From positions 1 through 64,000 of IMG/VR virus record IMGVR_UViG_3300032282_005862: a stretch of DNA of 64,000 nucleotides; one strand, written 5' to 3'. How positions within the stretch are numbered: the first letter of the stretch is position 1; each line of letters opens with the position of its first letter. Position numbers and translations under genes: made by a program. The notes beneath the pieces were generated by a model, which was given only the letters and a program-made list of their open reading frames with translations, was not told the origin of the DNA and ran no database searches. Below, one piece after another: positions 23,247 through 36,411 of this stretch. This DNA comes from a virus.

Positions 23247-23280
23247 TTTTTAATAAAAAACAAGTGTAAATTTAATACAT

Positions 23281-23633
23281 ATATCATGTGGTACTCTACT
23301 TTCAGCTTATTATCCAGATTATCTTAAAACAATATTGATTCAAACATATTCTGGAAATGACGATGTATTTAAAGCTTGTGCTTGTGGTCTTAAAACTCCA
23401 ACTAATGATGAAGGTTGTCCTATTCTTGATGAGGATGGCAAGGTGGGGCTTTCCCATTTTGTTGCAATTCAGGAGCAGATGGAGTTGGAGATAATACAGA
23501 ATATCCTTTAAAACTTTCATTAAAACAAGCTATGCAGTTATACTGGAAAACCTGGACTTGGTTATTTTCTGGAATAGTTTCTGATACTAGTTCTTGTGGT
23601 GGCTGGACAATTAAATTTCCTTATTTAATATAA
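23281..23633 (+). pseudogene. relic of a Cys-rich protein + nucleotidyltransferase cassette
   Basis: Start mutated to ATA; reads SCGTLL...SGNDDVFKACACGLKTP...GCPILDEDGK; 1-nt frameshift near 23450; then FPFCC...GVGDNTEYPLKLSLKQAMQLYW; ends GWTIKFPYLI, matching the C-terminus of 24476..24916. Confidence 0.85.
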
Positions 23634-23637
23634 ATAA

Positions 23638-23651
23638 GTGTAATATTATAT
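23638..23651 (+). promoter_or_regulatory. GTGTAA promoter-like motif (example of ~15 copies)
   Basis: GTGTAA 8-11 nt before start codons at many genes on both strands. Confidence 0.65.
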
Positions 23652-24476
23652 ATGCCATGCAGTTTAGAATTAAAAAATAATATTCCAAAATATATTCAAG
23701 CTATTCTTGATGAAATTCTTGCTGGAAATGATGATGCATTAAAAGCTTGTGCTTGTAATCTTAAAGTTCCAGTTGGCAATGATGGATGTCCTGTAAAAGA
23801 TGAAGATGGCAAATTTGGTATATTTCCATTTTGTTGTTCTTTGGTAGAAGAAGGGGTAGGCGATAATACTAATTATCCTTTAAAATTAACATTAAAACAA
23901 GCTATGGATTTATATTGGAATACATCAAGTTGGAATTTAGATGCTGTAGCTAATTCAGCGGGTTGTTGTACTTATAATGGAATTTTTTCTGGTGGTGAGA
24001 GATATGAATTTAATGATCTCGAAAGAGAAGCCCCTCCGAAAAAAAATTTAGTATGTTTTAATTATTTTAATTATAAGGCTGGAGCGCAAGTAACGGCTTG
24101 TTGCCCGGTGCCGGGAAATCCAGAACCTGTATGCTCTACATCAAGTTCAGAACCTATTGTTCTTACTCTTTTTGAAAATTTGGATGCAATGAGATATAAA
24201 AAAGAAGGAAACATTTATTATTTTTATCCACATTTAACTATCGCTATTGGAGTTTATGCTATATGCGCAGCTCATACAAAGTCGGCTGCATCAGAATGTC
24301 TTTCAAGTTATCTTGGCGGTCAGGATAATGGTACAGCTACGGTTAATGTAAAAATTTTAGGAAAAGCTGCGGAAGGTCCCTTAAAACTTTATCAAAAATT
24401 ATTTGTGCCCACAAACGCGCCAGGATCATGTGGTTTTAGTGGAAATGTTGGGATTAATAAATTAGAGTTTATTTAA
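23652..24476 (+). CDS. Cys-rich protein, family member A
   Basis: N-terminus MPCSL...PKYIQAILDEILAGNDDALKACACNLKVPV...DGCPVKDEDGK...FPFCC is shared with 35159..35920. Confidence 0.8.
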   Translation: MPCSLELKNNIPKYIQAILDEILAGNDDALKACACNLKVPVGNDGCPVKDEDGKFGIFPFCCSLVEEGVGDNTNYPLKLTLKQAMDLYWNTSSWNLDAVANSAGCCTYNGIFSGGERYEFNDLEREAPPKKNLVCFNYFNYKAGAQVTACCPVPGNPEPVCSTSSSEPIVLTLFENLDAMRYKKEGNIYYFYPHLTIAIGVYAICAAHTKSAASECLSSYLGGQDNGTATVNVKILGKAAEGPLKLYQKLFVPTNAPGSCGFSGNVGINKLEFI

Positions 24477-24916
24477 TGTTTGATCATCAATTTATAATAA
24501 ATACTATTATAGAAAATAATGGCATTATAATCGGTGGATATATAAGAGAATGGTTGGGAAATGGAAAACCTATGGATTTTGGATGGAATGATATAGATAT
24601 ACGATGTGACGAAAATTCTAAAAAAAAAATAAAAAAAGAAATTGACGCTTTATATCCTAATTTAAAATTAGATTTTTCTCCAAGTGAATTCTCTGGATAT
24701 AGAAGTCCATATACTTGTAATCTGATACAATATGATGGTGAATTCAAAACTGTAAAATATATTGGTGAAAAAGATTATGTAAATTTAACAAAAAATAAAG
24801 AATGTATTTTTTTAAAACAAACTGGCGTAGGCAGAAAATTAAATTTTGAAAAAAGATTAATTAATGACGGCTGGAAAATTGAATTTCCTTATTTATTATT
24901 TAAATTTAAATATTGA
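24476..24916 (+). CDS. minimal nucleotidyltransferase, CCA-adding/poly(A) polymerase head-like
   Basis: IIIGGYIREWL...NDIDI (GGxxR...DxD) and YTCNLI (degenerate DFTxN). Confidence 0.7.
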   Translation: MFDHQFIINTIIENNGIIIGGYIREWLGNGKPMDFGWNDIDIRCDENSKKKIKKEIDALYPNLKLDFSPSEFSGYRSPYTCNLIQYDGEFKTVKYIGEKDYVNLTKNKECIFLKQTGVGRKLNFEKRLINDGWKIEFPYLLFKFKY

Positions 24917-24949
24917 TTATCTATTATATATTAAATATAATAAAAATAA

Positions 24950-25021
24950 GCCAGAATAGCACAGCGGTAGTGCAACGGTTTTGTAAACCGTAGGTCATCG
25001 GTTCGAATCCGATTTCTGGCT
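24950..25021 (+). tRNA. tRNA-Thr (UGU), no encoded CCA
   Basis: GCCAGAA/TTCTGGC acceptor, GCAC/GTGC D-stem, ACGGT-TTTGTAA-ACCGT, ATCGG-TTCGAAT-CCGAT. Confidence 0.95.
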
Positions 25022-25254
25022 CTTATTTTCTCTTTTTTGGAATAAAATAAACTATTGCTTCATCACCATATACTTGAAATGATTTTAATTTATAATTTTT
25101 ATTTTGTAGCATTTTATTTAATTCATTAATATATTCACTTTTCATATAAACTATAATTTTATCATTATCTTTAGAATCTATACCATATTCATCTGCAAAT
25201 TCAGAACAAATAGCCAATGCTTCGCTTAGATTACTCACGTAATAGTTTACACTA

Positions 25255-26247
25255 TTAAATTAAAGATTTATTTCCAGAGAAAATTATTTCAATATACTCA
25301 TTTAATATGTGATTTATTTGAGATCTTATAAAAGATTCCATTGCTTGTAATGTGTTAAATTTATAAAGATTATTATTTTGGAATAATTTATAAGTATGTA
25401 TTTTTTCAAGAATATCACATTTATTTATTATTAATTTATTGACTCCAGAAATTTTAATTGCGTCTATCAGTTTATTTAAATTTAGCCAATTAACTATCCT
25501 TTTTCTACCAGTTGTAGAACCAAACTCTTGACCAATTTCTATTAGCATATTTAATTCATCATCTTGCCAAAGTGATTCTGGAAATAATGGATCTACTCCA
25601 CTTTTTGTATCATAAATTTTAGCTACACCAATAATATCTCTAATTTTTTTAGGACTAAAACCTAATGAACAAGCAGAATAAGGCAAAGTTTCACTACTTG
25701 TAACATAAGGATAATCTCCATAATTTAAATCTAACCAAAAACTTTGTGCGCCTTCACATAGAATATTGCCATAGAGTTCGCCATTCCAAATATATTGTTT
25801 ATCTAAATAATTTCCTGCTAATTTGCCTATTCTTAGGGCTTTATCTGCATATGCTGGTGCAATTCCCTGTCCAGTTGTACCTAATTTTGGTTTTAAAAAT
25901 TTAAGATCATATTGAATATGTCTTTCAGTAATAATATGTGCTTTTGGACTTACTTTAATTAAAGAAGTATCAAATCCTTCTCTTTTAAGATAATCTATTT
26001 CATCAAAAAATTTATCAATATTGATAACACAATTTGGACCAATGACGCTAAGTTTATTTTGAAATACTCCACAAGGAATAATATGAGTTTTATATTTTTT
26101 ATCATTAATATAGACTGTATGACCTGCATTTGGTCCACCATTCCAACGACAAATAATATCATAATTTTTGCTAATAGCATTACTTATTTTACCTTTCCCT
26201 TCATCTCCCCAAGCTAATCCAAATATAATATCTACATTATTAACCAT
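25255..26247 (-). CDS. purA: adenylosuccinate synthetase (short form)
   Basis: WGDEGKGK, GGPNAGHT, LGTTGQGIAPAYADK, EGAQ, YPYVTSS, EFGSTTGRKR, NKCD. Confidence 0.95.
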   Translation of the reverse strand: MVNNVDIIFGLAWGDEGKGKISNAISKNYDIICRWNGGPNAGHTVYINDKKYKTHIIPCGVFQNKLSVIGPNCVINIDKFFDEIDYLKREGFDTSLIKVSPKAHIITERHIQYDLKFLKPKLGTTGQGIAPAYADKALRIGKLAGNYLDKQYIWNGELYGNILCEGAQSFWLDLNYGDYPYVTSSETLPYSACSLGFSPKKIRDIIGVAKIYDTKSGVDPLFPESLWQDDELNMLIEIGQEFGSTTGRKRIVNWLNLNKLIDAIKISGVNKLIINKCDILEKIHTYKLFQNNNLYKFNTLQAMESFIRSQINHILNEYIEIIFSGNKSLI

Positions 26248-26285
26248 CAGTACTATAATACCTATATATTAAAATAATGTAAAGA

Positions 26286-26618
26286 TTATTTTTTATTTAT
26301 TAAATGTTGTTGTATAATATCAAAATTACGATCTAATTTTTGTTCTATTCTATCAAAATAATCATCAAAAGATTCTTTTGTAACATAAGTTGTGCTAATT
26401 TTTAAAGCTAAATCTGCTATTTCTTGTTGATGTTTTCTTCCTTCTAATTCCATTTCTTTTCTTAAAGTAATAAAATCACTAAAAGTCTTATCATTAATGT
26501 CTTTAACTAATTTTTCTTGCTTATCAAAAAGGGAGAAAACTCTGGTAAATAACCATCCACCTAAAAAGGATAATGCTCCTAAAATAAGATTAAAAAGTAA
26601 GGTAATATCTAAATTCAC
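26286..26618 (-). CDS. N-terminal TM + coiled-coil protein (possible holin/lysis-type)
   Basis: One N-terminal hydrophobic helix followed by heptad repeats; GTGTAA motif upstream. Confidence 0.5.
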   Translation of the reverse strand: MNLDITLLFNLILGALSFLGGWLFTRVFSLFDKQEKLVKDINDKTFSDFITLRKEMELEGRKHQQEIADLALKISTTYVTKESFDDYFDRIEQKLDRNFDIIQQHLINKK

Positions 26619-26647
26619 ATAGATATTTACACTCTATTTAATAGATA

Positions 26648-27712
26648 TTATAGCTTTAAATCACCAAAATCATCATCAGAAATATCAGTTTTCCTTGCGC
26701 CTACTTTATAACTAGAAATCTCTGTTTCTTGAGGTGCTACCTGCACTTTACTGCTATCTAGATAACTATCCAACCATCCAGATATAGGATTATCTTTTTG
26801 ATTAAAAATCTTCTTATATCCAAGACTTCTTAGCCTAGAATCACATAGCCATTTAGAATAACCATCTAATACTTCTGCATTTAAACCTAGCAGACTACCT
26901 CTACTAAATAAATATTTAGACCATTCACTTTCATTTTTAGCTGCTTGTTCATAAAAAGCGTATATCTTATCTTCACTTTTTTTAACTATACTAGTAAATC
27001 CTTCTTTATCTTCCTCTTTTAAAATTTTAAGTAAATTTTGGCTAACTGCAAAATGTAATGCTTCATCTCTTTGAATAAATTTAATGATTTTAGAATTACC
27101 TTCCATCTTACCTCTATAACCAAAATAAAAAGAACAAGCAAAAGAAACATAAAATACAAGACCTTCCATTACATTAATAGAAAGAATTGCATCAAAAATC
27201 TTTTGTTTAGGATCTTTCTTTTCATCATCACCGAGAATCTTATCAAAATTATTTCTAATCAATTCGGCGCGACTTGTAATCTCTTTATCTTCCATAATAC
27301 TATCAAAGAATTTAGTGGCATCTGGATAAACATTATTTAAAAGATAAGAATAAGAATAACTATGAATACCCTCAAATTGTGCCCAAGTATTCATACAAAT
27401 TTCAAGTTCTGGATTACTTACATAATCTTTAAGAGAATGAATGCTACGAGAAAGCATACTATCTCCTAATGTTTGAAATCTAAGATTACTATCAAATACA
27501 AATCTTTCAGTATCAGTTAAATTTTTATAATCGCTTCTATCCTTACCTAATGCTATTTCGTGAGGCCACCAAAAATTTTCATTTTGTTTCTTGAATAATT
27601 CAAAAAATATAGGATATTTAAATCTATCATATCTTTGGAGATTCAAATCTTCGCCAAGAAATAATGGTTGTTTGGTAGTATCTACATTTTTGAAATTTAA
27701 AACTGTTTTCAT
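26648..27712 (-). CDS. nrdB: ribonucleotide reductase class Ia beta subunit
   Basis: FWWPHEI, FQTLGDS, EGIHSYSY, EGLVFYVSF, RDEALH, VAPQETEISSY. Confidence 0.97.
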   Translation of the reverse strand: MKTVLNFKNVDTTKQPLFLGEDLNLQRYDRFKYPIFFELFKKQNENFWWPHEIALGKDRSDYKNLTDTERFVFDSNLRFQTLGDSMLSRSIHSLKDYVSNPELEICMNTWAQFEGIHSYSYSYLLNNVYPDATKFFDSIMEDKEITSRAELIRNNFDKILGDDEKKDPKQKIFDAILSINVMEGLVFYVSFACSFYFGYRGKMEGNSKIIKFIQRDEALHFAVSQNLLKILKEEDKEGFTSIVKKSEDKIYAFYEQAAKNESEWSKYLFSRGSLLGLNAEVLDGYSKWLCDSRLRSLGYKKIFNQKDNPISGWLDSYLDSSKVQVAPQETEISSYKVGARKTDISDDDFGDLKL

Positions 27713-27715
27713 AGA

Positions 27716-29977
27716 TTATAATTTGCAAGCTCCACTAGAGCAGTCTCTATCTTCTTTTTGATTTAAGGATTGTTCTTTATCTCCATCATCTGTATTATTA
27801 TAATATAAACTAATTAGTCCAAGACTATATGCATATATAATTTCTTTCATGACTTTTGCATCTGGAAGAATATTATTTTCATAATGGCTATAATTATAGT
27901 ATACATTAGTTGATATTGCCATGTCAATATATTTTTGAATTACTGCGTTGATTTTAAGTAATCCAGTATTATCTTTTAGATCATATGCCAATTCATAGTT
28001 CTCATCATATTTTCCAATTCCTGGAACCATAACTGGAAGTTTTCCCATTTTGCTAGTTTTATAAGTAATGAGGCTACGAATAGGCTCGACTCCATTTGTT
28101 GAGCATTGAATTACCGAACTACTCTCACAAGGCATACAAGAAGATAATGTAGAATGCCTTAATCCAAATTCTTTAATGTCTTTTCTTAATTTATCCCAAT
28201 CAAGAGATAACTTTCTTTTAACTATTTCATCTACTTTGTCTTTATATGTATCAATAGGTAAAATACCTTTAGCATATTTAGTCCTATCAAATTTTTCACA
28301 CTTACCTTTTTCTTTAGCTAATTCAACGCTACTCTCTAATAGATAGTATTGAAAATGCTCCATCCATTCATCAACTACAGATAGTGATTTATCTGAACTA
28401 TATTTTAATTCATTCTTTGCTAAGAAAGCCGCAAGATTTGTAATTCCAACTCCAAGGCTTCTTCTTTTTTTAGCAAAATTTTCAGCAGCAATATTAAAAT
28501 AATCTTGAAGCTCAATGATTTCGTCTAGAAATCTTACGATAAGATCGCAAGTCTTTTCAAGATCCTGCCAGTTTTTTATTTCTAGCATATTTACTGCCGA
28601 AAGAATACACATTCCAATTTCACCTTCTTTATCGTGATAATCATTTAATGGAATAGTTGGATGAATAACTTCTGTACAAAGATTACTCATTGTAACTTTA
28701 TCTAACCATGCTCCGTGATTGTTTGCATGATCTACATTTAGAATATAAATTCTACCAGTTTCAACTCTTTCTTTAATAATAAGAGAAAATAATTTACGAG
28801 CAGATATTTTCTTTTTAATCTTTAATTTTTTAGATTCACACTCTTTATATACTTTATCAAAGTCTTTAGTTCCCCATGCTTCGTAAAGTTCTGGAACTTC
28901 GGCATTATTAAATAGAGTAACATCTTCATCTTTTAATACTCTATCATAGAATAATTTACTCATTCCAACTGTATAATCAAGTTTGCGAACTCTATTATCA
29001 TCTGTTCCTGCATTATTTTTTAATACAACAATATCTTCAATTTCATAATGCCACCATTGAATGTTACAAGTTGCACTTCCACCTCGTAGTCCATTTTGTT
29101 GCCAAGCCTTTACGCTACTTTCATAGATTTTTAAAAATGGAATTAAACCAGTATGAACAACTTCTCCATTCTTAATAGGAGAACCAATTGCTCTAATTTT
29201 ACTTACATCAATACCAATTCCACATCTATTAGCAGTAGCCATACTAACAGCGGTAGCACTAGCTGTAATGCTATCTTTTGTATCATCTACTCCAATTAAG
29301 CAACAACTAGCATAATTTCTGCTAGATGTTCTAACTCCTGCCATTACTGGTGTTGGAAGATTAATTTTATGTTTACTAATAGCATCATAAAATTTTCTAA
29401 CATAAGAAAGTCTCGTCTCTGCTGGATATTTTGCAAAAGCATAAGCTGAAATTAAGATATAAGCGAATTGAGGCGTTTCGTAAATTTGACCAGTAGTTCT
29501 ATTCTTAATCAAATATTTATCGCAAAGCTGCTTGATTCCAGCATAAGTAAAAATAAAATCTCTATCGTGATCAATAAATTCTCCAATCTTATTTATTTCA
29601 TCTTCTGAATAGTGATTCAAAATACTTGAGTCATAAACTTTATTTTTAATATTTTGGTTTAAAAACTCTGATAATCTAGGAGCATGTTTACCTTTCCAAA
29701 CATCTTTTCTAAGTTGGTAGTTTAATAATCTTGCTGCGACATATTGATAATTTGGTTTTTCTATGGAAATTAAATTAGCTGCGCTTTCAATTAAGAGGTT
29801 ATGAATTTCTTTTGTATTAATTCCATCATGGATATTAATCTTAGCGTTAATTTCAATATCTGTTAAACTAACTCCACTATAACCATCAATTGCCCAGTTA
29901 ATTACTTTGTTTATTTTTTCTATATTAAACTTTTCTGTAGAACCATTTCTTTTTTTAACATTTGTATTTTTATTCAT
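27716..29977 (-). CDS. nrdA: ribonucleotide reductase class Ia alpha subunit with ATP cone
   Basis: VKKRNG ATP cone, ASCCL, SNLCTE, CILS, SLYY, C-terminal CSSGACKL. Confidence 0.97.
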   Translation of the reverse strand: MNKNTNVKKRNGSTEKFNIEKINKVINWAIDGYSGVSLTDIEINAKINIHDGINTKEIHNLLIESAANLISIEKPNYQYVAARLLNYQLRKDVWKGKHAPRLSEFLNQNIKNKVYDSSILNHYSEDEINKIGEFIDHDRDFIFTYAGIKQLCDKYLIKNRTTGQIYETPQFAYILISAYAFAKYPAETRLSYVRKFYDAISKHKINLPTPVMAGVRTSSRNYASCCLIGVDDTKDSITASATAVSMATANRCGIGIDVSKIRAIGSPIKNGEVVHTGLIPFLKIYESSVKAWQQNGLRGGSATCNIQWWHYEIEDIVVLKNNAGTDDNRVRKLDYTVGMSKLFYDRVLKDEDVTLFNNAEVPELYEAWGTKDFDKVYKECESKKLKIKKKISARKLFSLIIKERVETGRIYILNVDHANNHGAWLDKVTMSNLCTEVIHPTIPLNDYHDKEGEIGMCILSAVNMLEIKNWQDLEKTCDLIVRFLDEIIELQDYFNIAAENFAKKRRSLGVGITNLAAFLAKNELKYSSDKSLSVVDEWMEHFQYYLLESSVELAKEKGKCEKFDRTKYAKGILPIDTYKDKVDEIVKRKLSLDWDKLRKDIKEFGLRHSTLSSCMPCESSSVIQCSTNGVEPIRSLITYKTSKMGKLPVMVPGIGKYDENYELAYDLKDNTGLLKINAVIQKYIDMAISTNVYYNYSHYENNILPDAKVMKEIIYAYSLGLISLYYNNTDDGDKEQSLNQKEDRDCSSGACKL

Positions 29978-30053
29978 AATGTAACTAGCGCAAAAACTAT
30001 ATTACATTATTTTTTAAACTAAAGAAAGAAAATTTTTAAACTTTATTAACAAT

Positions 30054-30407
30054 TCAGTCAGAATGTTTTTTTGGGTGTACTCTGCCTTTTCTTTTTTTGC
30101 TCCAATCTTCGTAATACTTTTTCTTTACTGGATCTTGACCACCATAGATTTTTTTTCTTTTTTCAGAAAGCTCTGCACTTCTATCCCAAAGATCACCAAT
30201 TGAACCTTTTTGATTTTTTGTATATTCTGCAAATTGTTTATCTGTTGCATCCGCTTTTAATGTACCTTGTGTATTAACTTCTGGAACTGTAAAAACTCTT
30301 TTCCATTCTATTCCATCTTTATCAATAAATATATGCTTATCATGCACAGATTGCACAACATCTATTGTTTCTTCAGTTTCTGGATGGATATAAGTATACA
30401 ATGGCAT
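30054..30407 (-). CDS. FmdB-like small protein lacking the zinc-ribbon cysteines
   Basis: MPLYTY N-terminus of FmdB family proteins, without CxxC. Confidence 0.5.
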   Translation of the reverse strand: MPLYTYIHPETEETIDVVQSVHDKHIFIDKDGIEWKRVFTVPEVNTQGTLKADATDKQFAEYTKNQKGSIGDLWDRSAELSEKRKKIYGGQDPVKKKYYEDWSKKRKGRVHPKKHSD

Positions 30408-31493
30408 TTATTTTAAATGAGAGATTATATTTTCAACAAATTTTTCAGATGTAAATTCTTCTTGAAGTTTTAAACCTTCTTTATTAGTATTATTCTCTTT
30501 GACCTTTTCTATAGCTTCTTCACAGGCAGCGATAAATTCATTACCATCAAAATCATAAATATTGCCTTGATTAAAAGATCCACCTTTGGGAAAAAATATT
30601 CCATCATAAGCTTCTATTTTAGAATTAGGTTCTACTAGAATACTATTATTTTTATTTGCCCAAGATTTATAACCATGAGCATTCATTATAATTCCATATT
30701 TACCCATAGCAACAGAATGAAATTCTGGTAAACCCCATCCTTCTGCGCCACTCATGCCAATAATTACATTAGCACTATTTAAGTAATCATTGTAAATTTT
30801 ATTTTGCCCCATGAATGGTAAGAAATTTATATTGAAATAATTTTTACCTTCTAAGACTTGAGATAATAAAGTATTTTGATCCTCTTGTTTCATGAATGGA
30901 TTAAAAATACAGCATTGAAGTGCATATCTTTTATCATTACCAAATTTATTAGCCCAAAGTTTAATTAATTTAAGGTGATGTTTTCTTTTTTCTAGTTTAC
31001 CTACTAGATTAAAAACAATTCTATCATCTGTAAAATATGTTTTTTCTATTCTATTAAAATTATATTTATCAAATGCTAATGGAATATATTCTACATTATT
31101 ACAACCAAGACTATTGAATAGTTCGACTGTTTCTCTTGAAGAAAAAAGAACTTTATTATTATTTTTTACAATATTTAATTCTATTTTTGTTGGTTGATCT
31201 AATTCATAAAAACTAAGTAAAACTTGTTCATTCGAAAAACTTTCAAATGAACCATTCAAATGCCATAATTTAAATAATTTATTCTTTCTATTAAAGGTTT
31301 CAAGAGAAGAATTAATTGATTGTTGTAACCAATTAGCGAATTCTTGAGTTAAATCTGATTGAGTAGATAAATCAATATTACCCATAGGTAAAATACCTAC
31401 ATTAACTTTAGAATTATATAGTTCTCTAAGAATTAATGTAGATACTTGACCAAAACTTACTGAATTTATTGGTAAGTTAAACGCTAAACTCAT
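30408..31493 (-). CDS. GT-B glycosyltransferase (GT4-like)
   Basis: VGKLEKRK and EGWGLPEFHSVAMGK (ExxGL donor-binding motif). Confidence 0.8.
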   Translation of the reverse strand: MSLAFNLPINSVSFGQVSTLILRELYNSKVNVGILPMGNIDLSTQSDLTQEFANWLQQSINSSLETFNRKNKLFKLWHLNGSFESFSNEQVLLSFYELDQPTKIELNIVKNNNKVLFSSRETVELFNSLGCNNVEYIPLAFDKYNFNRIEKTYFTDDRIVFNLVGKLEKRKHHLKLIKLWANKFGNDKRYALQCCIFNPFMKQEDQNTLLSQVLEGKNYFNINFLPFMGQNKIYNDYLNSANVIIGMSGAEGWGLPEFHSVAMGKYGIIMNAHGYKSWANKNNSILVEPNSKIEAYDGIFFPKGGSFNQGNIYDFDGNEFIAACEEAIEKVKENNTNKEGLKLQEEFTSEKFVENIISHLK

Positions 31494-31795
31494 AGGATGT
31501 CATCTTCATCCTCTTGAACAACTGGTTGAGCTTTCCTTGCTGGAGCAGTTTTTGCTACTGGAGCTGAAGCCGTAGTCTTATTTTGACTATCTAGTGGCTT
31601 AGAGACATATAGTCTGTAATCTGGAGCCTTTTCATTTGTCTTTTTACTATTAGCAAAAACTACAACATCAATTCTTTGGCCATCATGGTCATTAATATAA
31701 CCAGATAGAAATGACATTCCTGTTTTACTTTTCTTCTTCCAAAGAGCACCTAGCTCATTTTGATTCTTATTTGTATTTTGATTTGTATTATTCAT
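31490..31795 (-). CDS. DUF736-like protein, probable ssDNA-binding protein
   Basis: GALWKKKSKTG..FLSG...APDYRL and an acidic C-terminal tail EDEDDIL. Confidence 0.65.
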   Translation of the reverse strand: MNNTNQNTNKNQNELGALWKKKSKTGMSFLSGYINDHDGQRIDVVVFANSKKTNEKAPDYRLYVSKPLDSQNKTTASAPVAKTAPARKAQPVVQEDEDDIL

Positions 31796-31816
31796 TTTTA
31801 TATTGTATCTCCTTTA

Positions 31817-32410
31817 TTATATTTTGTCAAAAGAATTTTTACTCTCAACTTTCGTTTTTAATAGTTTGATAGCTTTATTATGAATATTGATAGCAGTTTG
31901 AGTACTAATCTTTAATTTTTTAGCTATCTTATTCCAAGACATTTTTTTATTTGTATTATTTAAATATCTCATTTTGAATATTTTTTCTACTCTTTTATCT
32001 GAGCATGACTCTATGATATTAAAAATATATTCATTAATATTTTTATATTCTTTTTGCGGAGTAATATTTTTTTCTATTAAATAGTTTAATTTATCAGTTT
32101 CAAGTGTCAAATAATGACTATTCTCATTCATGCAATTAAGGCATTGATATCTTACTTGATTGTACAACCAAGTTGAGAATTTAGAATTTTTACAAGGATC
32201 AAAAGACATTGCAGATTTGTATACAATATAATCTTTTTGATCTATTACATCTTGTACGTGAACTCCAGATGTAACCATAGGATTTGAGTATTTTTTATAC
32301 AAAGAATTACAAAGCGCAGAATGTTTATTTATAAGCATTTTTAATGATTCTTCATCATTTTTTTCTTGTATATTTCTTACTAAAGTATTATCGTCTATAT
32401 TTATATTCAT
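31817..32410 (-). CDS. phage sigma-70 family RNA polymerase sigma factor
   Basis: Region 2 FDP..SKFSTWLYNQVR; region 4 HTH MSWNKIAKKLKISTQTAINIHNKAIKLLK. Confidence 0.85.
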   Translation of the reverse strand: MNINIDDNTLVRNIQEKNDEESLKMLINKHSALCNSLYKKYSNPMVTSGVHVQDVIDQKDYIVYKSAMSFDPCKNSKFSTWLYNQVRYQCLNCMNENSHYLTLETDKLNYLIEKNITPQKEYKNINEYIFNIIESCSDKRVEKIFKMRYLNNTNKKMSWNKIAKKLKISTQTAINIHNKAIKLLKTKVESKNSFDKI

Positions 32411-32412
32411 AA

Positions 32413-33000
32413 TTATTTTTTATTCTCCATATATTTTTCATAAATATTTTTTAATTGTTTTTGCATAAGTTCATATAAAAAATTAACATCTTGACATGTT
32501 TCCCAAGAAATCGAGTAATCTGCAACAGCTTTAAGTTTATTATCGTTAGATTTTTCTTCAATATTAGCTGGAGGAATTAAAGATCCATCGTCTAGTTTTC
32601 TAGAAATATGAATAAGAATACCATTGTGTGATTTCAACCAAGAATATTCATCTTCTTTATATTCTATATATCTTACATCAGTAATAATTGGAATAATATT
32701 ATCTTTCTTAAAATTTTTAACTTCTGAATCTACTAATGATGTCCAATATTTACCTTCTGTTTGAACTCTTCTGCATTTACCATATGCAACCATTAATGGT
32801 CTAATTAATTCTTTATCCTTACCTTCACATTTATTTAAATCTATTTTAAATTTTTCTTTTGTAAAATCTCCAAGTTCTTTTTTCAAATTATCAGCTAATG
32901 CAATTCTTTCAGATTTAAGATTTTTTTCTTCTAAATACTTTTTAAGTATTGAATAAAAAGTATCTTTTCCACATCTAGCTACTCCAGTTAATCCTATCAT
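32413..33000 (-). CDS. deoxynucleoside monophosphate kinase
   Basis: IGLTGVARCGKDT, LADNLK, IITDVRY. Confidence 0.85.
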   Translation of the reverse strand: MIGLTGVARCGKDTFYSILKKYLEEKNLKSERIALADNLKKELGDFTKEKFKIDLNKCEGKDKELIRPLMVAYGKCRRVQTEGKYWTSLVDSEVKNFKKDNIIPIITDVRYIEYKEDEYSWLKSHNGILIHISRKLDDGSLIPPANIEEKSNDNKLKAVADYSISWETCQDVNFLYELMQKQLKNIYEKYMENKK

Positions 33001-33488
33001 TTTTCTTCTCCATAAGATATTTCTCCAGTTCCATCATATCTAGGATAATCTTGTCCAGTATGAATTTCTTGAGTATTTACTTGATTTTGTATATTTGATT
33101 TTAAAAATTTTGTATCTACATTTTGATCAATATGTTTAGCTTCAAAAGGTTTAGTGAATATTGTACCATGAGATTGATTTGTAGAGGTTGTATCATTTTT
33201 ATATGTTCTATACATTTTGTTTTGAATTATAATAAACTCTGGAAATGGTTTAGAAAATATCGTACCATGAGATTGATTAGTTCCATTGCCTCCTCCAGTT
33301 TTATAAGTTTCATAAACTTCTATACCTCTAGCAGTTTTAATGTAATTATATTCTTGAAAAGGTTTTGTAAAAATTGTTCCATGAGATTCATTACTATTAC
33401 TACTTGTAGTTTTATATGTTTCATATACTACTCCAGATTGAGCTATAGCAAAATTAGCTATAAATAATAATAAGATTATATATTTCAT
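32997..33488 (-). CDS. secreted protein with three internal repeats
   Basis: Signal peptide; three copies of Y(E/R)TYK...N(E/Q)SHGTIF(T/S)KPF. Confidence 0.75.
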   Translation of the reverse strand: MKYIILLLFIANFAIAQSGVVYETYKTTSSNSNESHGTIFTKPFQEYNYIKTARGIEVYETYKTGGGNGTNQSHGTIFSKPFPEFIIIQNKMYRTYKNDTTSTNQSHGTIFTKPFEAKHIDQNVDTKFLKSNIQNQVNTQEIHTGQDYPRYDGTGEISYGEEK

Positions 33489-33898
33489 ATTTTAATTAAT
33501 TCTATATTATAAAATTTAAATATTTCTTTAGCTGTAGTATCTTTTTCATATTCTTCTGAGTATACCACAGTTTTAACTCCATATGCAACAATATTTGTTG
33601 CACAATTAGAACAGGGTAATAATGTAGAAGCTAATAAATATGGATCGTCTCCTCTTTTAATTAAAGATAATGCATTAATTTCAGCATGAATCATATATTT
33701 TCTTCTATTATCTCTATCATTAAAAAAATCTTGTTTAATATTAAACTTTGGTAAAAGACCATTATACCCAACCGACAATACTCTACCATCTTTATTTAAA
33801 ATACATACTCCAACTTTTTTATATGGATCTTCTGATCTATTTGACCAAATCTGAGCAGTATGAATTGCTGCTTCAATAAATGATATTCTATTATTCAT
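33485..33898 (-). CDS. dCMP deaminase
   Basis: RSEDPYKKVG, SVGYNG, IHAEINAL, PCSNC; likely start MNNRISF. Confidence 0.92.
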   Translation of the reverse strand: MNNRISFIEAAIHTAQIWSNRSEDPYKKVGVCILNKDGRVLSVGYNGLLPKFNIKQDFFNDRDNRRKYMIHAEINALSLIKRGDDPYLLASTLLPCSNCATNIVAYGVKTVVYSEEYEKDTTAKEIFKFYNIELIKI

Positions 33899-34044
33899 TT
33901 TGTAGAAAAATGCCAATATAAAGATATTGTAATACCCATTATAATACATGCAACTGTTTGAAACATAAAGACATATTAAAACTTTTTTATTTTTAAGTCA
34001 ATTATTTTCTTGATTCTTTAAGAAGAATAGTTTAATATAAATAA

Positions 34045-35154
34045 ATGCAAAAACAAGAATTCAAAGAAGCTTTAAGTTACGATGATATTTCGTTACTTCC
34101 AAATTTTTCAAATATTACTTCAAGAAAAGAAGTAAATACAACTACAAAAATTTCAAGAAATTGTAATATCAAAATTCCAATTATTCTCTCTCCAATGGAT
34201 ACAGTATCTTCTGTTAAGTCTTGTATTAAAATGAATAAACTTGGTGCAGCTGGAGTTTTGCATAGATTTATGAGTGTTGATGATCAAAGAGCTAAAGCTA
34301 AAATTATTAAAGATGAAAGTAATTTTTGTGTCACTGCTATTGGTCTAAAAGACGCAGAAGAAAGAATTAGAGCTACTAGTACTTTTACTAATGTTTACTT
34401 TTTAGATACAGCTAATGGTTTAGCTAAGAATGTTGAAGATTTTCTTAGATGGTATAAAACAGTTGGATTTTCTCAAGATGTTATCGTTGGAAATACTTTA
34501 ACGAAAGAAAGCGTATATAGACTTGCTAATCTTAAAGCTGATGGATTTAGACATCTTATTGGTCCAGGGTCAATGTGTTTAACTCAAGTTAAAACTGGAA
34601 TTGGATGTCCAAGTTTAACTGGAAATTATTACGCTTGGAAAGCTGTAAGAAATTGGGAGCTTTCTCAAGTAGATTTATTTAAACAAGATAAACCAAATCC
34701 ATCTCATAGACCAAGTATTCTTGCTGATGGTGGTATTAGATATCCAAAAGATTTAGTTAAAGCTATTGCTAGTGGATGTGATGCTGTTATTTGCGGTAGA
34801 ATTTTTGCTGGATTATCTGATATAGTCGAAGATGAAGATATTGTAGAGATTAATGGTAAAAGATTTGCTAAATATAGAGGAATGGCAAGCCAAGATGTTG
34901 TTGAAGATTATGATTTATATGATGGAACTAAAAAAAATCTTTTTGTAGAAGGAGATAATACTTTAATTCCAATTATTGAAAATAAATCTATAGAAGATAT
35001 TGTATATGATTTTACTAATGGATTAAGAAGTGCTATGAGTTATCTTGGATTCAGAAATTTACAAGATATGAGAGGTGGATTATGGAATAATACTATACAA
35101 GCAGTTAGAAATAGTCCAAATAGTATGTACGAAGGATTTGCTCATGGAAAATAA
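34045..35154 (+). CDS. GMP reductase / IMP dehydrogenase family (no CBS domains), more likely GMP reductase
   Basis: LSYDDISLLP, SPMDTV, IGPGSMCLT (catalytic Cys), ADGGIR, YRGMAS, VEG; flap lacks the IMPDH Arg-Tyr dyad. Confidence 0.85.
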   Translation: MQKQEFKEALSYDDISLLPNFSNITSRKEVNTTTKISRNCNIKIPIILSPMDTVSSVKSCIKMNKLGAAGVLHRFMSVDDQRAKAKIIKDESNFCVTAIGLKDAEERIRATSTFTNVYFLDTANGLAKNVEDFLRWYKTVGFSQDVIVGNTLTKESVYRLANLKADGFRHLIGPGSMCLTQVKTGIGCPSLTGNYYAWKAVRNWELSQVDLFKQDKPNPSHRPSILADGGIRYPKDLVKAIASGCDAVICGRIFAGLSDIVEDEDIVEINGKRFAKYRGMASQDVVEDYDLYDGTKKNLFVEGDNTLIPIIENKSIEDIVYDFTNGLRSAMSYLGFRNLQDMRGGLWNNTIQAVRNSPNSMYEGFAHGK

Positions 35155-35158
35155 ATCA

Positions 35159-35920
35159 CTAATCAACAAATGGATTAGTTAATATTATTTTTCCTGTTGC
35201 AAATCCTCCGTATTCTGCTGAACCATATGTTGCCATATTTATTGTAATTTTAGATTTATCTGATGAACCACTAGTTGATCTAAGATTTCCACAGCATCCA
35301 TTTAAACTTTCATAAGTATAATAAAATGGATATATTAATTTATTATTTTTATCAATCCAGCCTCTTTTACCTTCATATGCAAGCCAAAATCCTGCTGCTA
35401 CTCCAAAATATGGTTTTGGATATAGACCATCAGTTGGATAAGTACATTTTCCTCCATCGCTTCTTGTAGGAGCTTTTGGATTAGTAGTATTATCAGCTTC
35501 TGCTCCTCTTGCTGCTTCACCACAAAATAAATCTTTAAGTTCTAATCCTTTTGTCTGTAAAGTAGTAGAACCGCTTGAACTCCATACACCATTGCAAGAT
35601 TGTGGATTTATATTTCCTGCAGCTCCTTTGGCTTCAAAAATTATTTTAATTGAGCTTCTATTCCAAAAAAATCTCATAGCATCTTTATAAGATAATCCTA
35701 TATTTGCTTCTAAATAAGGACTACTTGGAGCTGAATCAGCTAAACAAAATGGAAAAGCTACATTTTTTTCGTCTTCATCTAGAATAAGACAACCATCTTT
35801 TACTGGCGCTTTGATTTGACAAACACAACCTTTTAATGTTTCATCCCTTCCAGCAAGAGCTTCTTCAATATATCCTTTAAGATATTTTGGAAAATCAGCA
35901 TCTTTTAAACTACATGACAT
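35159..35920 (-). CDS. Cys-rich protein, family member B
   Basis: MSCSL...PKYLKGYIEEALAGRDETLKGCVCQIKAPVKDGCLILDEDEK..FPFC is homologous to 23652..24476; C-terminal halves are dissimilar. Confidence 0.8.
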   Translation of the reverse strand: MSCSLKDADFPKYLKGYIEEALAGRDETLKGCVCQIKAPVKDGCLILDEDEKNVAFPFCLADSAPSSPYLEANIGLSYKDAMRFFWNRSSIKIIFEAKGAAGNINPQSCNGVWSSSGSTTLQTKGLELKDLFCGEAARGAEADNTTNPKAPTRSDGGKCTYPTDGLYPKPYFGVAAGFWLAYEGKRGWIDKNNKLIYPFYYTYESLNGCCGNLRSTSGSSDKSKITINMATYGSAEYGGFATGKIILTNPFVD

Positions 35921-35937
35921 ATGTTTTATATTTACAC

Positions 35938-36411
35938 TTAAAAATCATTTAAAATTTTCCAATTTTTAAATTTTGATTTTCTTATTTTATAATTTGGGCA
36001 ATTTTTAAAACCGATTGCTTCTTTTTTATCAAAACCATATAGTAATGTATTTATATCATAAGAAAAAACATTTGGAACAATTACTATATTTTCTCCAATT
36101 AATCCTAAACAATTAAAAGTAAAATCATTTATATAAAATATTTTACATAAATCAATTCTATAATTTCCATATTTTAAAACATAATGAATTTCTAAATTTT
36201 CAATAGAATCTGGTGGAAATTTTTTTATAAAATTATTATATAATTCATCAAAATTATAACATAAAATATCCACTTCTTTATTCCATTTTTCATTTATTAA
36301 TATATTCCTAATAAATCCTCCAAATATCATACAGTCTTCATTATTTAATAAATAAATTATCTGATCTGAAACTTCTGGGTAAGTTTTTATAATATATTGG
36401 TATATATCCAT
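35938..36411 (-). CDS. minimal nucleotidyltransferase, CCA-adding/poly(A) polymerase head-like
   Basis: IFGGFIRNIL...KEVDI, RIDL, DFTFNCL. Confidence 0.7.
   Translation of the reverse strand: MDIYQYIIKTYPEVSDQIIYLLNNEDCMIFGGFIRNILINEKWNKEVDILCYNFDELYNNFIKKFPPDSIENLEIHYVLKYGNYRIDLCKIFYINDFTFNCLGLIGENIVIVPNVFSYDINTLLYGFDKKEAIGFKNCPNYKIRKSKFKNWKILNDF

What the first reader, a model, noticed from the sequence alone, without database searches (positions are those of the whole stretch)
23281..36411. Repeated two-gene cassette: Cys-rich protein with variable C-terminus paired with a minimal CCA/poly(A)-polymerase-like nucleotidyltransferase
Seen in the sequence: 23652..24476 and 35159..35920 share a ~90-aa N-terminus (xCSL...PKY...LAG.D..LK.C.C..K.PV..DGC...DED.K...FPFC...L..K.AM..[YF]W) and then diverge into different Cys-rich tails. 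Each abuts a 146-157-aa gene with the class II NTase head motifs (GGxIR...[D/E]xD, xTxN, terminal WKI). A third, relic copy lies at 23281..23633. Every Cys-rich gene starts 8-11 nt after GTGTAA. Established knowledge: CCA-adding enzymes need neck and body domains beyond this head, and these proteins lack them. Inference: a polymorphic module in which a dedicated NTase modifies, chaperones or neutralises its partner, which may be a virion or effector protein. An alternative is that the NTases repair RNA 3' ends, since all three tRNAs and the tmRNA here lack encoded CCA. I do not recognise this pairing from any described system.
Basis: partly seen in the sequence, partly recalled or inferred. 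Interest (0 to 1): 0.85.

Follow-up and report, generated by a model that had tools for sequence, protein, structure and literature searches.

The report
Head-only phage nucleotidyltransferase with dedicated partner
An uncultured freshwater phage carries two copies (plus a wreck of a third) of a two-gene unit in which a very small nucleotide-adding enzyme is always encoded beside a fast-evolving partner protein of unknown fold that is predicted to clamp onto it, a pairing that recurs in unrelated phages and has not been described.

Summary
The two Cys-rich genes (23652-24476 +; 35159-35920 -) are paralogues. The two small genes (24476-24916 +; 35938-36411 -) are diverged relatives. 23281-23633 is an internally deleted third cassette.

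The small protein models confidently as the head domain of class II CCA-adding enzymes and keeps GG...DxD. It fails the sequence tests for that family and lacks the neck and body domains.

The partner models confidently, with a helical Cys-bearing N-part and an all-beta tail, and has no fold match.

Fifteen of 16 distinct small-enzyme genes in related and distant viral contigs sit directly beside a partner gene, nearly always partner first with overlapping stop and start. In the window's second pair the order is reversed. Enzyme type follows tail class. The complex model supports binding through the tail.

The partner belongs to a multi-copy family of 2-7 genes per phage fragment, and more than half of its members have no enzyme. 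GTGTAA is a general gene-start signal of this phage, not a cassette mark.

Best reading: a two-subunit nucleotidyltransferase, probably used in host conflict. The target is unknown.

This scan has noted short Gad2-like phage enzymes on other DNA before, but not this partner.

The parts
23264..23269 (+). GTGTAA start-proximal motif of the relic copy
23281..23633 (+). Relic cassette. It keeps partner-family codons ~1-105 with ATA instead of ATG and a frameshift near 23445-23465, fused to the last ~10 codons of an NTase gene (23601-23631)
23638..23643 (+). GTGTAA motif 8 nt before the partner-A start
23652..24476 (+). Partner A (274 aa). It has an N-terminal Cys module (C3, C33, C35, C46), a core FPFC...AMxLYW segment, and a beta tail from 94 to 274 (tail class A)
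24476..24916 (+). NT-A (146 aa), a head-only class-II-like nucleotidyltransferase. Its start overlaps the partner's stop (TAATG)
35938..36411 (-). NT-B (157 aa), a type-2 head-only nucleotidyltransferase, here upstream of its partner
35932..35937 (-). GTGTAA motif 11 nt before the partner-B start, immediately after the NT-B stop codon
35159..35920 (-). Partner B (253 aa), tail class B. This class is the one linked to type-2 enzymes in L007 and L012

Best explanation
The unit encodes a two-subunit nucleotidyltransferase. The small subunit (146-157 aa) is only the catalytic head of a class II (CCA-adding/poly(A)-polymerase-like, Gad2-like) enzyme. It keeps the metal-binding GG...DxD core but has no neck, body or tail domain to choose a nucleotide or hold a substrate.

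The larger subunit is made from the same message in nearly all loci, because its stop overlaps the enzyme's start. It docks its beta-rich tail against the enzyme beside the catalytic face. It thereby supplies substrate recognition and/or control of activity.

The tail evolves about twice as fast as the enzyme. The partner family is multi-copy, scattered as self-contained inserts and prone to decay. I therefore infer that the complex acts in phage-host conflict, for example counter-defence or host take-over by nucleotidylylation of a host RNA, protein or small molecule.

Shown or computed: the fold, the conserved catalytic motifs, the conserved adjacency, the co-inheritance and the predicted interface. 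Inferred: catalytic activity, the partner's role as specificity or regulatory subunit, and the conflict role. Unknown: the target.
For: Fold of the enzyme:
- The NT-A model has pLDDT 88 and pTM 0.81.
- The top Foldseek PDB hits are all class II CCA-adding enzymes and the stand-alone head 2la3 (prob 0.96, E 1.6e-2, TMq ~0.52).
- VIA gives Z 7.4-7.6 (rmsd 4.2-4.5, 130-135 aligned) for 3wfo/3h37/2la3/4wby, against Z 3.5 for the first unrelated row.
- G20 and D41 are invariant across 32 diverse family members. D/E39 and a D-F-x-x-N remnant of motif B are kept in most.

Adjacency and co-inheritance:
- Adjacency holds in the large-phage clade.
- It also holds in a distant clade whose partners lack the Cys module. 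All 10 loci (5 distinct) have a partner ending in overlap with the enzyme start.
- Partner homology across the clades: hhalign 98.5%, E 1.5e-15, 191 columns.
- Tail class A always goes with type-1 enzyme and class B with type-2. Other tail classes have none.
- Tail identity against enzyme identity gives r 0.83 (Mantel p 2e-4), and r 0.95 within type A. Paralogous pairs in one genome sort alike.

Predicted complex: the model supports binding.
- ipSAE 0.65 (runs 0.69, 0.45, 0.65), best of 3 controls 0.01.
- That mark was reached by 58 of 80 solved complexes and 2 of 110 mismatched pairs. The counts hold only roughly because my own alignments were used.
- The runs share at least 84% of contacts, and the partner pLDDT is at least 81.
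- The interface is tail residues 105-251 against enzyme residues 38-39, 46-53, 64-76, 114-124 and 140-142.

Conflict signature:
- 2-7 partner genes per partial genome, and a decayed copy here.
- Inserts lie in opposite orientation between conserved replication genes.

Lead to Gad2: the nearest language-model neighbours are viral Gad2/PolyA_pol-head clusters (score 0.93, 154 shared features). Gad2 is a phage NTase-domain protein that defeats Gabija and is toxic when expressed alone (bioRxiv 10.1101/2023.05.01.538930).
Against: - No activity, target or expression datum exists.
- Sequence-level kinship to class II heads is not demonstrable (Pfam below threshold; hhalign 17%), so the fold call rests on a predicted model with middling Z.
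- More than half of the partner-family genes have no enzyme, so the family's basic job does not need one. One enzyme gene (L005 7103-7591) has no adjacent partner.
- Co-inheritance of adjacent genes is expected from linkage alone.
- The centre of the predicted interface is an enzyme loop (114-124), not the active site, so the model does not tell a specificity subunit from a substrate or an inhibitor.
- The Gad2 link is an unaligned similarity score only. PF26128 is absent from the local Pfam copy.
Confidence: 0.42

Rival explanations
1. The partner is the enzyme's substrate. The NTase covalently nucleotidylylates its cognate partner (for example on a Tyr, Ser or Thr of the tail) to activate, inactivate or mature it, as MntA does to HepT in type VII toxin-antitoxin pairs.
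For: There is tight 1:1 coupling and tail-class specificity. The predicted interface touches residues next to the catalytic Asp positions (38-39, 64-68). The partner family works without an enzyme in other copies, so the enzyme could be an accessory acting on particular tails.
Against: No nucleophile is conserved only in enzyme-linked tails. The invariant Y192-P193 is also present in several enzyme-less copies and is not among the confident interface residues. The partner is not a HEPN protein, because its tail is all-beta.
Confidence: 0.2
2. It is a toxin-antitoxin or effector-immunity pair. One protein is harmful and the other neutralises it by binding. The arrangement (conserved head, variable tail, small cognate gene, tandem arrays, truncated relics) mirrors polymorphic toxin loci.
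For: The order is upstream partner then small gene, with overlapping stop and start. There are tandem arrays and a relic. Gad2-family NTases are reported as toxic on expression. The predicted binding is strong.
Against: The tails are homologous beta domains, not unrelated toxin domains. The small protein keeps its catalytic residues, which is unusual for a pure immunity protein. Many enzyme-less partner copies and a 270-aa 'antitoxin' are atypical. PADLOC gives no match.
Confidence: 0.15
3. The small protein is an assembly chaperone for a structural (virion or fibre-like) protein whose variable tail binds a receptor. Its NTase fold would be a relic without catalysis.
For: A conserved head with a variable tail followed by a small cognate gene resembles tail-fibre plus chaperone pairs. 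In the distant clade the pair ends an operon of large unknown proteins.
Against: GG and DxD are invariant or nearly so over deep divergence. In the large phage the genes lie among replication and nucleotide-metabolism genes. There is no PHROG or structural match to fibre or baseplate proteins.
Confidence: 0.08
4. The small enzymes are independent tRNA/tmRNA 3'-end (CCA) repair enzymes, and the adjacency to the partner is incidental.
For: The head fold is that of CCA-adding enzymes. The phage's tRNAs and tmRNA lack an encoded CCA. Full-length tRNA nucleotidyltransferases are common in large phages (411 records).
Against: There is no neck, so no EDxxR template. Motif B RRD is missing and there is no body or tail for tRNA binding. 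Pfam PF01743 is not reached. Adjacency is conserved in 15 of 16 cases, including phage contigs with no tRNA nearby. tRNA-Thr also follows an enzyme-less partner copy in L011.
Confidence: 0.05

Closest known systems
Short Gad2-like phage nucleotidyltransferases (Gad2, Gabija anti-defence 2; Pfam PF26128 overlapping PF01743)
   Same: They are phage-borne and have a PolyA_pol/CCA-head-like catalytic domain without tRNA-binding domains. Their targets are unknown and they lie in accessory regions. They are the nearest language-model neighbours of NT-A.
   Different: Founding Gad2 is about 400 aa and acts as a single protein. Here the enzyme is 146-157 aa and is coupled to a dedicated partner gene. 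No alignment-based link to Gad2 could be made, because the model is not in the local library.
Class II CCA-adding enzymes / poly(A) polymerases (PF01743), and the stand-alone head 2la3
   Same: They share the predicted fold of the head domain, motif A GG..R...DxD, and a D-F-x-x-N remnant after the flexible-loop region.
   Different: The window proteins have no neck (EDxxR), body or tail, and no RRD. They fall below the Pfam threshold. The profile-profile match is limited to about 21 columns of motif A.
Two-polypeptide nucleotidyltransferases: MNT-HEPN (HI0073/HI0074, MntA-HepT) and TRAMP (Trf4 with the zinc-knuckle protein Air2)
   Same: A minimal pol-beta-type catalytic subunit depends on, or acts on, a separately encoded partner. 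In TRAMP the partner is Cys-rich and supplies substrate binding (from established knowledge).
   Different: The partner here is neither HEPN nor a zinc-knuckle array. It is a novel-looking protein with helical and beta parts. The enzyme resembles class II heads (Z 7.5) far more than MNTs (Z 3.0-3.3).
Polymorphic toxin / immunity cassettes (CDI, Rhs)
   Same: They share a conserved N-part, a fast-varying C-part, a small cognate downstream gene, tandem arrays and truncated orphan copies.
   Different: The variable parts here are one homologous domain. The small gene looks like an active enzyme. The context is a lytic-type phage genome.

Membership tests
Class II CCA-adding enzyme / poly(A) polymerase (PF01743) | Motif A: G[GS]xxR ... 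DxD metal-binding signature | tested here: met
   GGYIRE...DIDI in NT-A and GGFIRN...EVDI in NT-B. G20 and D41 are invariant in 32 family members.
Class II CCA-adding enzyme / poly(A) polymerase (PF01743) | Motif B DxxRRD (ribose recognition; PMC2910056) | tested here: not met
   Only D-F-x-x-N remains in most members, and RR is absent. NT-A reads RSPYTCN, against RRD[LF]TIN in phage CCA enzymes.
Class II CCA-adding enzyme / poly(A) polymerase (PF01743) | Neck domain with motif D EDxxR nucleotide template, plus body and tail for tRNA | tested here: not met
   The proteins end after about 146-157 aa, and the model contains only the head.
Class II CCA-adding enzyme / poly(A) polymerase (PF01743) | Pfam PF01743 score above the gathering cut-off | tested here: not met
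   NT-A and NT-B give no hit at E<=1. One of 24 members hits at E 0.08. There is no match in the whole 98.6-kb record, while the controls respond. hhalign against six phage CCA heads gives 17% over 21 columns.
Class II CCA-adding enzyme / poly(A) polymerase (PF01743) | Head-domain fold | tested here: met
   Foldseek prob 0.96 and TMq about 0.52. VIA Z 7.4-7.6 against 3.5 for unrelated rows. This rests on a predicted model.
Gad2 (PF26128) | Match to the family profile | not testable with these tools
   PF26128 is not in the local Pfam library. The only evidence is an Atlas feature score of 0.93 with 154 shared features, which is a lead.
Gad2 (PF26128) | Inhibition of Gabija defence | not testable with these tools
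   This is an experimental property.
MNT-HEPN toxin-antitoxin | Partner is an all-alpha HEPN protein with an Rx4-6H motif | tested here: not met
   The partner tail is all-beta, and Pfam and PADLOC give no HEPN hit.
MNT-HEPN toxin-antitoxin | Enzyme is a minimal MNT-type NTase | tested here: inconclusive
   MNT structures align at Z 3.0-3.3 only, well below class II heads.
MenT/AbiEii NTase toxins | Bi-lobed DUF1814-type fold | tested here: inconclusive
   MenT4 gives Z 2.8 and TglT gives Z 3.0. Pfam gives no hit.

The most novel reading that the evidence does not exclude
This is a previously unrecognised class of modular phage enzyme. A head-only nucleotidyltransferase is programmed by interchangeable, rapidly diversifying partner proteins of a new fold, each tail class steering the enzyme (or acting alone) against a different host target or defence system. 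The multi-copy partner family would then be a phage 'adaptor repertoire' comparable in logic to polymorphic effector systems.
Probability: 0.22. Interest if true: 0.8.

Novelty: new variant of a known kind. Interest (0 to 1): 0.62.

Why it matters
Head-only Gad2-like nucleotidyltransferases are widespread in phages, but their targets and their means of recognising substrates are unknown. This module offers a natural handle on that question. The enzyme comes with a dedicated, co-inherited partner that is predicted to bind it, so the two can be co-expressed and purified, used for pull-downs of the target, and assayed. The partner family itself has a confident model with no structural match, is multi-copy and evolves fast. 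It would be a new protein family of phage-host conflict in abundant uncultured freshwater phages.

Tried and rejected
- GenBank phages gave no DNA or protein match for the region, for either protein, for a distant NT, or for the 655-aa neighbour. The one exception is P0070 against a jumbo-phage tRNA NTase at E 0.3.
- Pfam, PHROGs, NCBIfam and PADLOC gave nothing for either protein.
- PDB sequence profiles gave nothing meaningful.
- Partner fold searches gave no clear match in Foldseek PDB or BFVD. The VIA best was Z 5.0, to beta-barrel or LolA-like half-barrels, which is within background.
- The Atlas gave no usable hit for the partner.
- hhalign of the NT family against phage CCA heads was weak.
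- The metagenome scan with NT+DUF6171 fusions returned only stand-alone DUF6171 proteins, with no NT or partner nearby. Scans with P0074 and P0075 were unproductive. A5 was too diverse to scan with.
- No RNA holder is listed among public runs. The DNA holders are lake or freshwater metagenomes, mostly at small shares.
- Sigma-70 promoter and terminator scans were at chance level. A hand-read promoter before NT-B did not meet the scan's criteria and was dropped.
- A T4-type capsid-targeting or cleavage signal (LxE) in the N-terminus is not consistent across copies.
- tRNA-Thr next to NT-A is a neighbour of that locus, not of the enzyme, because it also follows an enzyme-less copy.
- Alternative genetic codes did not open L036 1-10000.


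Full report
**Setting.** The window is the first 64 kb of a 98.6-kb IMG/VR viral record judged 64% complete, with about 28% G+C. It encodes an RIIA-like protein, ATP-dependent DNA ligase, clamp loader, UvsX-like recombinase and DnaB-like helicase. It also encodes ribonucleotide reductase, three tRNAs and a tmRNA. No isolate in GenBank is close: the helicase is about 25% identical to its best hits, and the region has no DNA match. Public runs that hold the stretch are lake or freshwater metagenomes. It is a large uncultured freshwater phage.

**The observation.**
- The two Cys-rich proteins are paralogues, with BLASTP E 9e-18 over residues 1-135.
- The two small proteins are weakly similar pairwise (E 5e-4) but fall in one family by profile.
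- The relic is real. It carries partner-family codons 2-110 in two frames, with ATA where the others have ATG. Its last 31 nt match the 3' end of NT-A at 28 of 31 positions. It is therefore a third cassette that lost its tail and most of its enzyme gene by an internal deletion.
- Partner A's stop and NT-A's start overlap (TAATG).

Three corrections apply.
1. In pair B the enzyme gene is upstream of the partner gene, with a 17-nt gap that holds GTGTAA. At the same locus in L012 and L007 (beside the 369-aa gene) the order is partner then enzyme, with overlap.
2. The tails are divergent versions of one domain, not unrelated sequences.
3. GTGTAA is a general signal. Ten of its 16 occurrences in the window (11 counting the relic) lie 8-15 nt before an ORF start. 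Eight of those are unrelated genes. Most other hexamers of the same letters tested do so in about 5-25% of cases. The motif is conserved before partner-family genes in all related phages.

**The small protein.** With a 24-sequence alignment the AlphaFold2 model has pLDDT 88 and pTM 0.81.
- Foldseek's best PDB hits are all class II CCA-adding enzymes, plus the stand-alone head domain 2la3 (prob up to 0.97, E 1.6e-2, TMq about 0.52).
- The Foldseek-independent search gives Z 7.4-7.6 for the same set, with 130-135 residues aligned at rmsd 4.2-4.5. The first unrelated row scores Z 3.5.
- The family keeps G[GS]xxR...[DE]xD, with G20 and D41 invariant in 32 diverse members. Most members keep a D-F-x-x-N stretch where class II enzymes have RRD-F-T-x-N.
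- At the sequence level the family does not qualify as PF01743. There is no Pfam hit, and hhalign against six phage CCA-enzyme heads gives 17% over 21 columns.
- It lacks motif B RRD and the whole neck, including the EDxxR template described in PMC2910056.
- The family is rare: 36 clusters at 50% identity among 1.84 billion representatives.
- A few members are tandem double domains or carry a C-terminal DUF6171 Cys-rich domain.
- The protein-language-model atlas places NT-A nearest to viral clusters annotated Gad2 and PolyA_pol head (score 0.93, 154 shared features). This is a lead only, because the Gad2 Pfam model is not in the local library.
- Gad2 is a 400-aa phage protein with a predicted nucleotidyltransferase domain that defeats the Gabija defence system by an unknown mechanism. 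The SPbetaL7 copy is toxic when expressed (bioRxiv 10.1101/2023.05.01.538930).
- Earlier follow-ups in this scan described short Gad2-like enzymes in other phages, some with an SSB-tip-like tail. None had a partner of this kind.

**The partner.** With 36 sequences the model is confident (pLDDT 91.7, pTM 0.88).
- Residues 1-92 form helices and Cys-bearing loops. Residues 94-274 form a long antiparallel beta structure.
- No library gave a clear fold match.
- Invariant positions across tail classes A and B include C3, C33, C35, C46, F58-P59-F60-C61, A84-M85, W89, C106, C135 and Y192-P193.
- Homologues in a distant group of viral contigs lack the first ~50 residues, and with them C3/C33/C35/C46. 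They keep FPFC, AMxLYW, the (L/R)VC Cys and Y-x-P. The profile-profile comparison gives 98.5%, E 1.5e-15, over 191 columns.
- The old core is therefore FPFC-to-tail. The four-Cys N-module is an addition in the large phages. I infer it is a zinc site, but this is untested.

**The pairing.**
- In five related partial genomes there are 2-7 partner-family genes and 1-2 enzyme genes each.
- Tail clustering gives class A (32 sequences). In every locus available, class A is followed by a type-1 enzyme.
- Class B (window partner B, L007, L012) is linked to type-2 enzymes.
- Several further classes have no enzyme.
- In the distant clade all 10 loci (5 distinct sequences) have the partner ending in overlap with the enzyme start.
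- Of 16 distinct enzyme genes, 15 have a partner gene directly beside them. The exception is L005 7103-7591.
- Identity between tails tracks identity between their enzymes (r 0.83, Mantel p 2e-4; within class A r 0.95). Two cassettes in one genome (L006) sort with different orthologues in both genes. This shows inheritance as a unit. It is expected of linked genes and does not by itself prove co-evolution.
- Tails diverge about twice as fast as the enzymes.

**The predicted complex.** The model supports binding.
- ipSAE is 0.65 (runs 0.69, 0.45, 0.65), against 0.01 for the best of three controls.
- That mark was reached by 58 of 80 solved complexes and 2 of 110 mismatched pairs. The counts hold only roughly here, because my own alignments were used.
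- The runs agree in at least 84% of contacts, and the partner pLDDT is at least 81.
- No like complex is known to me, so recall from solved structures is unlikely.
- The interface uses the tail (105-251), not the shared N-part. This agrees with enzyme type following tail class.
- On the enzyme it centres on loop 114-124 (the conserved G119-R120 of type 1) and reaches residues next to the acidic triad (38-39, 64-68).

**Interpretation.** A head-only enzyme with an intact metal site but no means to select a nucleotide or hold a substrate, made together with a protein that binds next to its catalytic face, is most simply a two-subunit nucleotidyltransferase.
- The partner may be the specificity or regulatory subunit. 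This is my preferred reading, at 0.42.
- The partner may be the substrate (0.2).
- The pair may be a neutralising toxin-antitoxin-like pair (0.15).
- A chaperone role (0.08) fits poorly with conserved catalytic residues.
- Stand-alone CCA repair (0.05) fits poorly with the missing motifs and the conserved pairing.

A role in phage-host conflict is inferred from four things: fast tail evolution, multi-copy scatter as reverse-oriented inserts between core genes, the decay of one copy, and the Gad2 lead. That many partner-family genes lack an enzyme is the main caution, because the family has a function of its own.

**Novelty.** Head-only phage nucleotidyltransferases and split nucleotidyltransferases are known kinds. 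The dedicated partner family, its apparently unmatched fold and the conserved pairing are new as far as my searches reach. I class this as a new variant of a known kind.

Noticed in passing
window 4363, 5705, 6398, 21259, 25252, 26632, 37883, 39016, 56858, 60248: GTGTAA sits 8-15 nt before the start codons of at least eight unrelated genes and 22 nt before the tmRNA gene. It looks like a phage-specific promoter or translation-start signal, possibly for near-leaderless messages.
   Followed up: partly
L024 1604-2326 (same contig as L012): A 240-aa ORF with 28 cysteines (it begins MSKEQAYCCLNC...) lies next to the type-B cassette locus in a related phage. It is absent from the window.
   Followed up: no
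L007 2355-2742; L005 2631-2720, 3202-3275, 5293-5365; L011 3379-3465, 5663-5735: Related phages keep the tmRNA with an almost identical 24-residue tag. They also keep tRNA-Ser(ACT), tRNA-Asn and tRNA-Thr at the same places.
   Followed up: no
P0071, P0074, P0079; L038-L064: DUF6171 is an abundant stand-alone 70-120-aa Cys-rich protein in aquatic viral and metagenome contigs. In rare cases it is fused to the C-terminus of this NTase family. P0070 and P0075 are tandem double-NTase proteins.
   Followed up: partly
L036 1-10000 (G005): Ten kilobases of a distant viral contig have almost no long ORF under code 11, code 4 or TAG=Q.
   Followed up: partly
L005 7103-7591: A third NTase type (162 aa, with an internal insert) stands alone between the 110-aa gene and the ribonucleotide reductase beta gene of a related phage, with no partner beside it.
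   Followed up: partly
window 24913-24941: TTGATT-17-TATAAT lies directly before tRNA-Thr (24950). It is a plausible tRNA promoter between NT-A and the tRNA.
   Followed up: no
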